Source: an uncultured Planctomycetia bacterium (GTDB lineage: Bacteria; Omnitrophota; Gorgyraeia; JABMRN01; RBG-13-46-9). From it: 49,461 nucleotides of DNA. Made by a program: the position numbers. The stretch is taken from the NCBI GenBank assembly GCA_964440235.1, contig CAYTQI010000005.1:1-49461 (forward strand), in the 5' to 3' direction. Of this stretch, positions 9,001 to 15,000 are shown piece after piece (the first letter of the stretch is position 1; the number at the start of each line of letters is the position of its first letter).

Positions 9001-12000
9001 GCATAAAAGGCGTGGGCAGCGTGCTAGCCGCCAGGATAATTTTATACAGAAAACAAAACGGGGATTTCAGGAAAACGGAAGAAATTAAAAACATAAAAGG
9101 TATAGGGCCGAAGACATACGAAAAAATCAAAGACAGTCTAACGCTGGAATGAAGAATGTCTATCTTCTCGCCGTAAGCGTTGTTTTTATATGCGGGGTGG
9201 TCCTCGCGTCTTACGGTGTTTTCGCCTCTTTTTCCCCGGTATTCCTTTTCCCGCTGGCCCTGGCGTTTTTCCTGTGCGCCGCTTTTTTTGTAAAAAAAAG
9301 CTTTTTATTTTCCGCCATTCTCGTAGGTCTCGTGTTCATTCTGGGCGTAATCCGCTACGAGACCTATAACCACATAGACAGCCGTAATATCAGGAATTTT
9401 ATTTCTTACCCGTCGAAAAAAACGCTCGTAACGGGCAAAGTACAAAGCGACCCTGTCGAAAGCCGTTCCGGAAGAAAAAAAACTTTCGTGCTAAAAGCCC
9501 ATTCGGTAGAATCGGCCCGCAAACGCGAAAGCGCGGGCGGTTTTATGCTTATAAACCTTTACGGTTCAAACAAACCCCGGTACCGTTACGGTGACGTGGC
9601 TGTTCTCGAAGGTTACCCGGCAAAACCGTTCTTTTACGGCGGAAAATACGGATTTGATTATGTAAAATACCTCGCCAACAAGCGTATTTATACCGTAATG
9701 AACGTAAAAAAGGGGTTTTTTTCCGGAATAGCGGGCGGGGATAAAAGATTCGCCGTGCAAATTATCAGAGGCGTTTATTCCGTCCGGAACAGAATGGCCG
9801 CGCGCGTGAAAAAATTTCTTAAGGCCCCTTATGACTCGGTGCTTCTGGCGGTTCTTCTCGGCAAAAGAGAGAAAATTCCGCCGTGGCTCAATGATCTATT
9901 CGCCAAGACAGGCACGCTTCACATCCTGGCTATAAGCGGCCTGCACGTCGGGATAATATATTTCGCGCTCAGGGTGATTTTAAAAATTTTCAGAATTCCG
10001 AAAAACGCGTCAATTATTTTATCAGTCGCGTTTCTGGCTCTTTTTACGATACTTGCCGGCGGCCGTCCGTCCGTATTGAGGGCCGCCGCTATGTTTTCGA
10101 TTCTCGCTTTCGGTGAAATGTTGAAGAGAAAAATCAGCGTTTTCAACCTGCTGGGGCTTTCCTGCCTGGCGATTCTCATAGTTTGCCCCAACCAGGTTTT
10201 TGACCTTGGTTTTGTGTTTTCATACGCGGCCGTTTTATCCATTGTAACCCTGGCGCCGGTTTTTTACGGGATATTTTACGTAGGCGCTGTTCCGGGACCG
10301 GCCGCGGCGGCCGCATCAAAGGTCAGGTGTTACTTTTTGCGTTCTATCTCGGTATCCCTGGCGGCATGGCTGGGGCTTTTGCCGCTTTTGGCGTATTACT
10401 TCGGGTTGATATCCCCGGTAGTCGTGATAGCCAACCTTGTGGTTATTCCGCTTGTCCTGATGGTAATGGTATCAGGCCTTTTTTTTCTTACATTGGGATT
10501 TTTAGCGCCATTTCTCGCTTCTATTTTTGCCCAGAGCGCGTGGTTTTTTATTTTTCTACTGATAAAAAGCGCCGAAATTTTCAAAAGTATCCCGTTCGGG
10601 TATTTCACTATAGAACAGCCTGCCTTTTACGGCGTGCCGCTGTATTACACAACGCTTTTTATTATGGTGGCGGGGTACAGGGTTTTCCGGAGAAAAAACC
10701 AACTTTTTCATTTCTAACTTGACATAGCAACTATTGTATGCTACACTTGCTTAGAGCCCGACGGAAATGCTTAAAAAAAGGGGACTTATGGCTAATTTTG
10801 AGGAAAAGAGAAGGTACGGGAGGATTCACGGACGCTTTGCCCTCAAGTATAAGGATATGAGGAAAAAAAATGAGGAATTTCGGGGAACCGTATCGAAAAA
10901 TTTAAGTGCGGGCGGCGTGAGGTTCAGAAGCGATAGATTTATTTCTCTGGCTTGCCGCCTGGTAGTGGAACTCAATGTACCGGAGCTTACCGAGCCCATA
11001 AGAGCCGTTTCAAAAATAGCCTGGATAAAAAAACTGCCGGCCGGCGATGACTACGAAGTCGGAAACCAGTTCCTGGAAATTTCAAGGCGGGACCGGGAAA
11101 TCATCCAGAACATGGTAAATACGGAATCCACCGGCGATTCGCTTTAAGTAAAGCGGATCCCGAGGCCGCTTTCCCTCCGCAATACCGCGATACTCTCTTT
11201 TATTGACAAAAGAAAACGCCTGTGATATATTGAAACTCGCCATGCGAAAATCCGGTTTTATAATAGTTATATTTGTTCTCTTTTTCTTGTTTTGCCGGGA
11301 TGCCTATCCTTTCTGGATATGGACACCCAAAGACAAAAAAATAGTCTATCCAAAGCGCGCCGCCAAAGACAGCCCGAAGGAGCATTTCAACTGGGCGATG
11401 GATTTTTTCAAGGAGAAAAATTACCAGAGAGCCGTGGAAGAATTCGAAAATCTTGTCGCGCATTTCAAGGATTCCGATATGGCCCCCGAGGCCCAGTATT
11501 ACTGCGGCCGTTCATATGAGGCGATGGGTAAATATTACCCGGCGTTCATCGCTTACCAGAAAACAATCGATATGTATCCATTTACGAAACGGAATGAGGA
11601 AATTATAGAAAGGGAATACGATCTCGGAAGCCGTCTTTACAGGAAACACAGGGGCCTTTTGATGGGGAAGGAAATAATGACCGACCTCGATCGCGCCGTG
11701 GAGATATTCCGCAAGGTCAAGGAAAATGCCCCTTTCGGGGAATACGGGGACAGGGCCCAAATGATGGTGGGGCAGTGTTATAAAAAGTCGGAACAGTATC
11801 ACGAAGCCATGAAGGAATTTCAGCGGTTAGTGGACGAATACCCTCGCAGTAACCTCGCGGACAAGGCCAGATACGAGGCCGCCCAGTGCACATACCTCGC
11901 CAGCCTGAAACCGGATTACGACCAGGAGCTTACCGATGACGCGATCAAGGAATTCAGGAGGATCGCCGAGATAAGGAGGGGGTTGAGTATTTCGGAAGAC

Positions 12001-15000
12001 GCGGAAAAAAGAATTTCCATGCTGGAAGACAAAAAAGCGCAGAGCCTGTTTACTACCGCTAAATTTTACGAAAGGCAGGGCCGCTATAAGAGCGCCGCCA
12101 TATACTACGGGGATATAGTGGAGAAATATCCCGCCAGCTCCTCGGCTGTATTGGCCGGAGAGAAGTTGACATTAATGAGGGAGCGCGTGGAAAAGGAAAA
12201 GTTGAAAGAGCGGCGTGAGCCGAAATCCTCAAAGATCGAATCCCTCTTGTCCTTATTTAGCTTCAAAAAAGGGCCGAAAAAAATAAAACCCGAAGAGGCG
12301 AAAACCCAGCCCCGGAAACCGTTTTTCAGTTTTATACGCCCGAAAAAAGCAGAATCGGCGGGAGGGGAAATAAAAGCGGCACAAGCCGAAGAGGCAAAAG
12401 CCCAGCCCCGGAAACCGTTTTTCAGTTTTATGAGCCGGAAAAAAGCAAAAACCGGGAAAGCGAAAACAGCCGCCTCCAAAAGGGCGCGAGGCAAACCGTT
12501 CAGCTTTTTTGGATACAGCTCGGGAGCGAGTTTACCCTCATCCGAATGCTCGATATGCGTGGACAATTTTGTCAGCAAAATCAACGTGACCGAGGAGACA
12601 TCCGACAGCAAGCCTTATTATTCTTATCTTCCGGGAATGGAAGCGGACATAACGCGCCGGGTTATTGACCGCTTCATATTTGACGGAAATTACGAAATAA
12701 AAAACGCTCAAAACGCCTGCTTTATACTTAAGGGGCAGCTTATAGACTTTAAGAGGGAGCCGCTCCGTTATGACGCTGACAATAAGGTCCTGGAATACAG
12801 GTTGAGCATTGTCGTGAATCTCGAACTTTACAGGACCGAAGGCAACGAGCTCATATGGCACGAAAACCATTTCGCCGGCGAAAGCACTTTTCGCACAGTG
12901 GGACAGTTCGCCAAAGTGGAAAATCTTGCCGCGCAGGACGCTATGGATGACCTTGCCAAGCGTGTCGTAGAGCGCACAGTAGAGAACTGGTAGCGTTCGG
13001 ATGAATTATTTGCTTATAGGCCCCGAAGAATACCTTAAGCGCCAATTTCTCGGAAAACTTAAAAAATCGGTTTTGGGCGAGACCGGCTCGGAAACCGATT
13101 TAGGAATTTTTACCGCCGGCGCCACACCGATATCCGAAATTCTGGCATTTTTGAATACCATGCCTTTTACCTCAAAAAAACGCCTGGCGATTTTAAATAA
13201 TATTGATGAAATTTCAACGGATGAAAAAGATTCCTTAGTGAGATATCTCTCGTCCCCGCGTGAATCATCGGTCCTTGTGATGAAAACATCATCACGCGAA
13301 TCCCGGAAATCCGCCGAAAAAATATTTTTGCCGGCAAAGATCATAAAATGCGACAGGTTGAAAGAGCGTGAAGTCGGTTCCTGGATACAAAAAGAATTCG
13401 CCGCGCGCGGAAAAAAAATTTCCCCGCCCGCGGCCGCCCTCATAGCGGAATTCGCGGGAAACGATTTATTGTTGCTCAAAAATGAGATCGAGAAAATAGC
13501 CGCTTTTGCCCTGAAAAGCGCCGAAATCACCGAAAAGCACGTTGAAGAAATTTGCCTCAGAAGCGCGTATAAAACGGCGTTCGAGCTTATTGACATGGTC
13601 CTCGGAAAGAAACTAGCCGAGGCGCTTCTTCCGTTAAGGGATTTATCGGCCGGGGAAAAATCGCACCGCATGCTGAACCTTCTGGCGTGGCAGTTCAGGG
13701 CCTTCATGAAAATAAAAAATCTTCCGAAGGGCCTTTCCCGGGATGAGATCTCACGTTTGTCCGGCGTAAAAAAATATTTTTTGGAAAAAACCATACGTGA
13801 AAGCGGGCGTTTTACCGTGAGGCAGCTTGCGAAAAACCTTGAAATCATCCTTGAAGCGGATTTTTTCATAAAAAACGGAAAAATGTCGCCGCAGCATGCC
13901 TTTGAGCGTGTTCTTGTGGGATTATGCGCGGGGTAATTTTTTTGAGAGACGGGCGATCTTCCTGGAAGCGGTATTGCGGTGGATCACGCCTTTTTTAACA
14001 GCTTTACTTAATTTAGAGGTAAGGAACCTCAACAGCTCCTTTGCCCGGTCAAACTTTTTTTCGGCAAGAAAAGCGTTGTACCCCTTTATAATTGTTTTTA
14101 CCTCGGTCGTCACCCGGATGTTGCTGAAATGCTTTTTTTTGGATTTTCTTATTTCTTTACAAGCTGATCTTTTTTGCGGCATAATTTTACACCCTCTTTC
14201 CGATTTGGTTAGACAATATATCACAGGAGCGATGATTTGTCAAATAAAAGATTAATTAAATCAACGGGGCTCATAGGCCTGGCCACTTCCGCGAGCAGGG
14301 TTCTCGGCTTTGCGCGTGACGTGCTGATCGCGAACTTTTTCGGCACCACTGTTTTTGCCGAGGCGTTTGTGGTCGCGTTCCGCATACCCAACCTTTTAAG
14401 GGATCTCGTTGGAGAGGGTGCCGCCAACGCGGCCTTTGTCCCTGTCCTGACCGAATATTGTACGAAACGTACACGGGAGGAATTCTGGGATCTGGCGAGA
14501 AACCTTTTACATGTTCTCGTTGTAGTTCTTTTTGTTGTTTCCATATGCGGGATCTTATTGGCTCCCGTGATAGTCAGGCTTATAGCGCCGGGTTTTATCG
14601 GTGACGCCCAGAAACTCGCCATAACCGTGGACCTTACGCGGATCATGTTTCCGTTTATCTTTCTCATAGGCCTTGTCGCTTACGGCATGGGTGTGCTTAA
14701 TTCACTGAATCATTTCGCGGTCCCGGCATTCGGCCCGGTTCTATTGAATATCTCCATGATATTTTTTCTTGTGTATGTGTGCCCAAAAATAGGCGTGAAA
14801 GGCCTGGCGCTGGCGGTTCTCGCCGGCGGCGCGCTTCAGGTTATCACGATAGGGTATATGCTTCGCAGGAAGGGCTTGCGCTTTATCAGCCCAATTCGAA
14901 ACACGAGCTTTGATCCTTCGGGCCCGGGGCGCGAATTCGGTATCCGCGGGCTGTATAAGGGCCTTATTCATCCGGCGATAAAGCGCATATGGAAGTTGCT

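What a model noticed while it worked through the whole genome (the two positions that open the first line are those of the whole stretch)
11242..12993. BamD fused to LptE, both without lipid anchor
g347 is one 583-residue protein: a BamD-like TPR domain, a charged linker and LptE, whose lipobox cysteine is gone. It likely tethers LptE to the BAM machine so that LptD is plugged as it folds, with no need for lipoprotein trafficking. New if true: natural Rosetta-stone evidence for a direct BAM-to-LptDE hand-over.
Evidence so far: Domains YfiO 148-323 and LptE 460-578. Among 24 relatives with an LptE match, 2 are fused (G154 same genus, 526 aa; G121 another family, 581 aa). In 16 of the other 17 loci viewed bamD and lptE were called as adjacent genes (one call was masked by an antisense frame), and the free LptE keeps a CGY lipobox, which all three fusions lack. 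No LolA hit in G000 or G121. Search 96 listed no such fusion.
(Added by a program. Inside this text positions count along the whole contig: contig position 1 is position 1 of the stretch shown here. "Call 12" and the like, gene names such as g00115 and contig names such as C1 are that model's own, and its searches are not shown. The text may have been shortened before it was handed on; [...] marks where a part breaks off. The agent that wrote the report below was given it as the finding of a first reader that could run no searches.)

Follow-up and report, generated by a model that had tools for sequence, protein, structure and literature searches.

The report
Recurrent natural BamD–LptE fusion protein
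In a few uncultured Omnitrophota bacteria, two neighbouring outer-membrane genes, for the barrel-folding helper BamD and the LPS-channel plug LptE, are joined into one protein that lacks LptE's lipid-attachment cysteine, which likely holds the plug on a flexible leash beside the folding machine where its partner LptD is built.

Summary
The fusion is real. One 583-aa frame holds a signal peptide, a BamD domain, a disordered basic linker and LptE without its lipobox cysteine; it is the genome's only bamD and only lptE. Nine fused proteins were found, falling in five separate lineages on both domain trees. Fusion is rare (3 of 401 class genomes, a lower bound). All 111 free LptE keep Cys-Gly/Ala-Tyr; all nine fusions have Phe or Leu there and no inner signal peptide. 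The BamD half is predicted to bind this genome's BamA POTRA5 (0.62, best control 0.00; like complexes are solved).

BamD without a lipobox is ancestral in these bacteria, not caused by fusion. Fused genomes keep lgt, lspA, lnt and a LolC/E-type permease, and the LolA profile misses 56 of 61 relatives, fused or not.

Adjacency explains the partner choice: the bamD-lptE operon is already in print, and PilZ-BamD fusions occur at the same locus. Best reading (0.45): a leash delivering LptE at BAM, with an aromatic patch replacing the lipid. A neutral join is close behind (0.3). I found no paper on the fusion; an earlier scan note mentioned it in passing on other DNA.

The parts
11203..11231 (+). 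sigma-70-like promoter site (TTGACA, 17 nt, extended -10), 10 nt before the ATG
   Evidence: 11 of 12 matches; 3 sites found, 2.2 expected in shuffles; a similar site is visible by eye in 4 of 6 relatives' upstream regions printed
11242..12993 (+). bamD-lptE fusion gene, 583 aa (P0001)
11242..11310 (+). signal peptide, aa 1-23, likely cut by signal peptidase I before F24; no canonical lipobox (Cys18 follows Phe; Pro at -1 is unusual)
   Evidence: sequence; (-1 residue Ala in 92 of 118 BamD, Pro in 5); predicted helix 3-19
11311..11352 (+). conserved aromatic start F-W-I-W-T-P...P of the mature protein, where textbook BamD has its lipidated Cys; predicted beta-hairpin
   Evidence: W25, W27 and P37 in 118 of 118; strands 26-28 and 33-35 at low pLDDT
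11311..12216 (+). BamD TPR domain, aa 24-325
   Evidence: best PDB match R. marinus BamD 3qky by sequence (E 1.6e-28) and by fold; predicted BamA POTRA5 interface
12217..12510 (+). disordered, basic linker (aa 326-423) with K-P-F-F-S-F repeats
   Evidence: pLDDT under 50 for 326-430; net charge +21 over aa 316-423; 84-nt direct repeat 12287-12370 / 12383-12466, 83% identical
12493..12516 (+). junction K-P-F-S-F-F-G-Y; Phe423 stands where free LptE has its lipobox Cys
   Evidence: same eight residues in the separately derived fusion P0100
12511..12993 (+). LptE domain, aa 424-583
   Evidence: PF04390 36 bits, cut-off 23; model pLDDT 83.6; fold matches Cj1090c 7rxu and LptE chains of LptDE complexes, TM 0.52-0.59
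10767..11147 (+). PilZ-domain gene, upstream neighbour
13001..13936 (+). holA, downstream neighbour (leuS...lptE-holA order)
21460..23508 (+). lnt (with a C-terminal nuclease domain); the lipoprotein pathway is retained
31702..33767 (+). LolC/E-type permease (over cut-off) and LolD-like ATPase (best family, under cut-off)

Best explanation
The gene encodes one protein in which BamD is joined by a basic, predicted disordered linker to a cysteine-less LptE, and it likely works as a leash: the BamD half is predicted to dock on BamA, which would keep LptE beside the machine so that LptD folds round it. Shown: the anatomy, single copy of each domain, loss of the Cys and of the inner signal peptide in 9 of 9 fusions, purifying selection on both halves, five separate origins. 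Predicted: BamD-POTRA5 binding; LptE fold. Inferred: export by Sec and signal peptidase I as a soluble periplasmic protein that needs no Lgt/Lol step for LptE; membrane contact through the N-terminal Trp pair and the basic-aromatic repeats, the last of which sits at the old lipid position; origin by deletion of the bamD stop and the lptE signal peptide, joining an existing basic-aromatic BamD tail to LptE's Gly-Tyr. After LptD closes, the plug stays inside, so the BamD half must either leave BamA with the finished translocon and be replaced, or keep BAM loosely tied to it.
For: Single copy of both domains in G000, with BamA, an LptD homologue (59% to a PF04453-positive LptD) and LpxC present. 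Complex model of BamA 277-776 with BamD 24-325: 0.62, best of 3 controls 0.00; the mark was reached by 116 of 157 solved and 2 of 215 mismatched pairs; runs agree in 100% of contacts, partner pLDDT at least 80; contacts at BamA 363-388, which holds residues invariant in 30 BamA sequences (T373, D375, R379, R380, P386). Five lineages on BamD and LptE trees; one clade rejected (p-AU 1.8e-51). Cys before G/A-Y in 111 of 111 free LptE against Phe (7) or Leu (2) in 9 fusions; best 13-residue hydropathy 1.52 or more in all free signals, 0.78 or less in all linkers. The last five linker residues are hydrophobic in 12 of 25 positions (one protein per lineage) against a shuffle mean of 3.0, maximum 13 in 2000. 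The basic-aromatic motif occurs 74 times in 27 of 32 free BamD tails of 10 aa or more (shuffles 28, maximum 47). dN/dS G000-G001 is 0.07 (BamD) and 0.09 (LptE). E. coli LptD folds round LptE while on BAM (PMC13048289) and crosslinks to BamD (PMC8423444).
Against: Fusion is rare: 3 of 401 class genomes, only G000 among 149 phylum genomes with LptE, so it gives no large advantage. Adjacency alone picks the partner: 77 of 98 scored pairs overlap or lie within 10 nt. BamD also fuses to upstream PilZ (L001 and P0109, 82% identical) and once to ComEC (P0148). Linkers of different lineages are unalike (51-210 aa, charge -3 to +21). Motif enrichment inside the linkers is weak (16 against 8.9, maximum 17) and the motif was defined after seeing the sequences. 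The complex pass may be from memory of solved BamA-BamD structures. A catalyst subunit tied to a permanent plug creates a turnover problem. Soluble variants of lipoproteins can work untethered in E. coli (PMC11784454), so the leash may not be needed. No expression, cleavage or binding data exist. dS is near saturation (about 1.5).
Confidence: 0.45

Rival explanations
1. Neutral concatenation: two co-translated neighbours were joined by chance; each molecule serves either as BamD or as LptE while the other half dangles. Loss of the signal core and Cys is only what a viable fusion needs.
For: Near-universal adjacency (134 separate against 8 fused loci rows; -4 overlap in 30 of 98); about 1% frequency; PilZ-BamD and ComEC-BamD fusions at the same locus; BamD tails of up to 780 aa are tolerated in unfused relatives; unlike linkers.
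Against: Five origins all end in a hydrophobic patch at the old lipid position, two with the same eight residues. With BamD bound to BamA, the attached LptE would be concentrated at the machine whether or not this was selected (inference).
Confidence: 0.3
2. The protein is a polyprotein: the linker is cut in the periplasm, releasing BamD and a soluble or peptide-anchored LptE.
For: Long disordered Lys-rich linker; cutting would solve the turnover problem (inference).
Against: No shared cleavage-like motif is visible across lineages; no inner signal peptide.
Confidence: 0.12
3. The fusion holds BAM and the mature LptDE translocon together for good, as one supercomplex that couples protein and LPS insertion.
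For: One gene must supply a stable subunit of both complexes; BamA binding predicted.
Against: No data on BamD exchange in these bacteria; a mixed pool gives the same gene counts; rarity.
Confidence: 0.08
4. The protein is still anchored at its N-terminus, either by an uncut signal peptide in the inner membrane or by lipid on Cys18.
For: Pro at -1 in 4 of 5 members of this clade and Cys at that position in 5 of 5.
Against: Phe precedes the Cys (not Gly, Ala or Ser); Cys at -6 in only 8 of 118 BamD rows and Ala at -1 in 92; the other four fusion lineages lack this Cys.
Confidence: 0.04
5. Assembly or sequencing artefact.
For: No single Logan contig spans the linker repeat; four lineages rest on one sequence each.
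Against: Overlapping contigs in 4 of 4 runs; four further fused relatives at 68-76% identity; the signal core and Cys are gone, which a single-base error cannot cause.
Confidence: 0.01

Closest known systems
BamD/YfiO (R. marinus 3qky; E. coli 5d0o_D; F. johnsoniae 9n2d_F)
   Same: TPR fold, TIGR03302 over cut-off, predicted binding to BamA POTRA5
   Different: no lipobox; conserved W-x-W start; about 100 extra residues between the two stretches that align to 3qky; ends earlier than 3qky's last repeat; continues into a linker and LptE
LptE/RlpB (4nhr, LptDE 4q35_B, 5iv8_B; Cj1090c 7rxu)
   Same: PF04390 over cut-off; alpha/beta LptE fold; gene directly before holA; LptD homologue in the genome
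   Different: no own signal peptide or Cys; exported as the C-terminal part of a larger protein
bamD-lptE operon of Methylacidiphilum (PMC10542722, passages read)
   Same: adjacent bamD and lptE in a PVC bacterium with a simple BamA-BamD complex
   Different: two separate genes there; the paper calls BamD a lipoprotein; no fusion is mentioned in the passages read
BAM-LptD-LptE late folding intermediate (PMC13048289, passages read)
   Same: LptE is inside LptD while LptD is attached to BAM
   Different: E. coli LptE arrives as a free lipoprotein; no covalent tie to BamD
Engineered BamA-BamD fusion (5efr)
   Same: BamD covalently joined to another outer-membrane biogenesis protein
   Different: a laboratory construct with BamA, not a natural fusion with a substrate's partner

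Membership tests
BamD/YfiO | matches the BamD family model over its cut-off | tested here: met
   TIGR03302 107.5 bits, cut-off 81.4; PF13525 59.4, cut-off 25
BamD/YfiO | TPR fold closest to solved BamD | tested here: met
   top hit 3qky by sequence and by Foldseek; TM 0.80-0.81 over E. coli BamD chains
BamD/YfiO | binds BamA POTRA5 | tested here: inconclusive
   model passes, 0.62 against best control 0.00; prediction only, like complexes solved
BamD/YfiO | N-terminal lipobox Cys (lipoprotein) | tested here: not met
   no canonical lipobox; lipobox-like motif in 6 of 118 relatives, scattered. It works like BamD and is its orthologue, but is not a textbook lipoprotein member
LptE | matches PF04390 over cut-off | tested here: met
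   36 bits, cut-off 23
LptE | LptE fold | tested here: met
   CsgG, PelC and HpaA share the fold and also score, LptE chains give the best TM (0.58-0.59)
LptE | N-terminal lipidated Cys | tested here: not met
   Phe or Leu in 9 of 9 fusions, Cys in 111 of 111 free orthologues
LptE | plugs the LptD barrel | not tested
CpoB/YbgF TPR protein | matches the CpoB model over cut-off, beside tol-pal | tested here: not met
   TIGR02795 80 bits, under cut-off 90.1; neighbours are comEC, pilZ and holA

The most novel reading that the evidence does not exclude
Omnitrophota have repeatedly built a covalent BAM-to-LptDE hand-over in which BamD carries the LptE plug to the folding barrel and then leaves with, or stays leashed to, the finished LPS translocon, with short basic-aromatic peptides standing in for both lipid anchors. 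BamD would then be an exchangeable carrier rather than a fixed subunit, and the two essential outer-membrane machines could be built without lipidating either subunit.
Probability: 0.3. Interest if true: 0.78.

Novelty: new variant of a known kind. Interest (0 to 1): 0.55.

Why it matters
How LptE reaches LptD on BAM, and why these subunits carry lipids at all, are open points: a review (PMC11784454, passages) notes that soluble variants have been tested only from multicopy plasmids. Here single-copy natural genes encode both essential subunits without a lipobox, in five lineages, and supply a ready design. An E. coli BamD-linker-LptE fusion can test cis against trans delivery, BamD exchange on BamA, and whether a short aromatic patch can replace a triacyl anchor. 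It would also give a stabilised BAM-LptDE target for structural work. If the fusion is neutral, it still shows that both domains tolerate a large passenger.

Tried and rejected
LolA as a signal: PF03548 hits 5 of 61 genomes; a profile of five of those six hit proteins finds nothing in G000, but the unfused family members are also blank (0 of 13), so I rejected it as evidence. No RNA holder listed; expression untested. AlphaFold of the whole protein (8-row alignment, pTM 0.46) leaves the linker disordered and gives no relative placing of the domains. Search for other LptE fusion partners: 6 of 6 long hits were BamD fusions already known, but that search missed three known fusions, so it is weak. 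The PF04390 class search listed only 150 of 362 matches and is biased against fusions, so I did not count from it. The LptE alignment found no solved structure by sequence (best E 0.027); the fold search was used instead. PF04453 missed G000's LptD; found by homology. The wide VIA fold search did not run. An internal start at Met397 with its own signal was rejected: no hydrophobic core. A likeness of the linker repeats to LptM's essential peptide (bioRxiv 10.1101/2025.01.03.631273, passages) is a short by-eye resemblance, not tested. Rows dropped from trees: L017, L059, L066 (short domains) and duplicates; later trees used subsets of 43, 44 or 75 rows. The only paper with both 'Omnitrophota' and 'bamd' matched a software name. 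Chng et al. 2010 is not held.
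Full report
What is there. 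The + strand ORF 11242-12993 encodes 583 aa in the order leuS, comEA, comEC, pilZ, this gene, holA (leuS named from its sequence, by recall). It matches YfiO at 148-323 and LptE at 460-578, both over cut-off, and the BamD model TIGR03302 over cut-off. Source names of homologues say Candidatus Omnitrophota. A model of the protein shows a TPR region to about 325, disorder from 326 to 430 and an alpha/beta C-terminal domain. The closest solved structure of the N-terminal part is R. marinus BamD by sequence and by fold. A separate model of the C-terminal part (pLDDT 83.6) matches Cj1090c and LptE chains of LptDE complexes, with CsgG and PelC relatives also scoring. Each domain occurs once in the genome, which also has BamA, an LptD homologue and LpxC.

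Is it an artefact? Contigs from 4 of 4 runs tile the gene without joints or indels, though none spans the linker repeat. The repeat period is 96 nt, so copy number would not break the frame. Four further proteins of 68-76% identity are fused the same way.

How common, and how often it arose. Of 401 class genomes, 3 gave a match over the whole fusion model among the 150 best matches listed; 1334 weaker matches were not listed, so this is a lower bound. Of 149 phylum genomes with LptE only G000 had a long frame. Protein searches added P0007, P0048 and P0100. The nine fused proteins fall in five places on a BamD tree (75 rows) and on an LptE tree without the junction columns (44 rows). One clade of the first eight is rejected (p-AU 1.8e-51), as are three smaller unions and P0100 with this clade (p 0.0009 BamD, 0.037 LptE). 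These tests used LG+G4 on quick trees, the smaller unions were chosen after seeing a tree, and counts of changes do not give direction; with unfused sisters all round, repeated gain is the simpler reading. Four lineages rest on one sequence each.

The unfused state. In 149 locus rows, 134 had separate neighbouring genes on one strand, 8 were fused (three genomes, repeated) and 7 ended before lptE. Of 98 pairs with a locatable lptE ATG, 77 overlap or lie within 10 nt, 30 by the -4 overlap; only 11 of 111 pairs are in the same frame. All 111 free LptE have Cys before G/A-Y and a hydrophobic signal (best 13-residue hydropathy 1.52 or more). The fusions have Phe (7) or Leu (2) there and no linker window above 0.78. 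They are therefore evolved joins, not read-throughs. BamD lacks a lipobox whether fused or not: 118 of 118 scored N-termini begin with W-x-W...P after a signal that ends mostly in Ala (one row escaped the pattern). This clade has Cys18 and Pro at -1, which leaves a small doubt about its processing.

The linker. It carries K-P-F-F-S-F repeats. Similar basic-aromatic motifs occur in 27 of 32 free BamD tails of 10 aa or more (74 motifs; shuffles 28, maximum 47), often as the last residues. The pattern was written after seeing the sequences, and enrichment inside the nine linkers is weak (16; shuffles 8.9, maximum 17). The five residues before Gly-Tyr are hydrophobic in 12 of 25 positions, one protein per lineage (shuffles 3.0, maximum 13), and P0100 has the same eight junction residues as G000 despite a separate origin. 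I infer that a deletion joined a tail's aromatic tip to LptE's Gly-Tyr, leaving an aromatic patch where the lipid was. Both halves are under purifying selection between G000 and G001 (dN/dS 0.07 and 0.09, dS near saturation).

Binding. BamA 277-776 with BamD 24-325 scored 0.62 against a best control of 0.00; this mark was reached by 116 of 157 solved and 2 of 215 mismatched pairs; the runs agree in 100% of contacts and partner pLDDT is at least 80. Contacts lie at BamA 363-388, which I place in POTRA5 from the sequence. BamA-BamD structures are solved, so the pass shows likeness, not binding. LptE-LptD and BamD-LptE were not modelled.

Lipoprotein trafficking. lgt, lspA and lnt are present in 5 of 5 genomes tested, three fused and two unfused. 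A LolC/E-type permease is present in 5 of 5, over cut-off in 4, followed in G000 by a LolD-like ATPase. A loose pattern finds 18 lipobox candidates in G000, about a dozen credible by eye. The LolA profile hits 5 of 61 relatives. Fusion frees LptE, not the cell, from the pathway.

Against an adaptive reading. The fusion is rare; adjacency fixes the partner; BamD is also fused to upstream PilZ in two proteins 82% alike and to ComEC in one, both keeping the inner signal core; unfused BamD tolerates tails up to 780 aa; linkers differ in length and charge.

Mechanism. Most likely (0.45) the protein is exported whole, BamD docks on BamA, and LptE is held nearby for LptD to fold round it. In E. coli LptD does so while on BAM (PMC13048289, passages) and crosslinks to BamD (PMC8423444, passages). 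Because the plug stays in LptD (established knowledge), BamD must exchange off BamA or keep the two machines tied. Rivals are a neutral join acting in trans (0.3), cleavage (0.12), a permanent supercomplex (0.08) and a retained N-terminal anchor (0.04).

What is in print. The bamD-lptE operon is noted for Methylacidiphilum (PMC10542722, passages). A review says soluble variants of lipoproteins can work from multicopy plasmids and cites Chng 2010 among its sources (PMC11784454, passages); that LptE is the case meant is my recall, the paper not being held. A 2026 BAM review has no occurrence of 'fused' (PMC13067283, passages). PMC13631591 (passages) lists 7RXU as LptE-like. Eight full-text searches (listings only) showed no paper on a natural BamD-LptE fusion; subscription papers and supplements were not seen, and public databases already hold the proteins with both Pfam domains.

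Verdict. Real, recurrent and apparently undescribed; a new variant of known parts. It agrees with a hand-over that is already shown rather than revealing it, and its value is as a natural design for a direct test. Interest 0.55.

Noticed in passing
L001 (G053) BamD frame; P0109: PilZ domain fused in frame to BamD through the old signal core, in two proteins 82% identical; would tie BamD to the inner membrane with a cytoplasmic PilZ domain unless the signal peptidase site is still cut.
   Followed up: partly
P0148: ComEC fused to BamD (834 aa) with BamD's Met and signal peptide intact; one sequence, may be a read-through error.
   Followed up: partly
window 21460-23508: Lnt carries a C-terminal staphylococcal-nuclease domain (682 aa); frames of similar length in G001 and G012, shorter in G007 and G018.
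   Followed up: partly
window 842-6004: 1720-aa protein with Glu/Leu/Phe/Val dehydrogenase domains, a weak nucleotidyltransferase match and HEAT repeats.
   Followed up: no
L025 and P0023, BamD N-terminus: An in-frame insertion of about 25 aa between the signal peptide and the W-x-W start, partly repetitive in L025; may be a small mobile repeat inside the gene.
   Followed up: no
L059, L067, L069, L104, L148; P0091, P0093, P0212, P0225: Unfused BamD with tails of 300-800 aa, either disordered with K-x-W-x-P-F repeats or long and charged.
   Followed up: partly
L167-L171: LolA-like proteins with ordinary signal peptides, in most of these loci directly after a pyrC-like gene; none detected in G000.
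   Followed up: partly
window, inside the ORF 17427-18056: A run of N (assembly gap) lies within the prfB-like gene (gene name from the sequence, by recall).
   Followed up: no
P0094, P0095: BamD-like proteins from outside Omnitrophota (one named Methylacidiphilales) also show no lipobox by eye, so lipid-free BamD may be wider in the PVC group.
   Followed up: no
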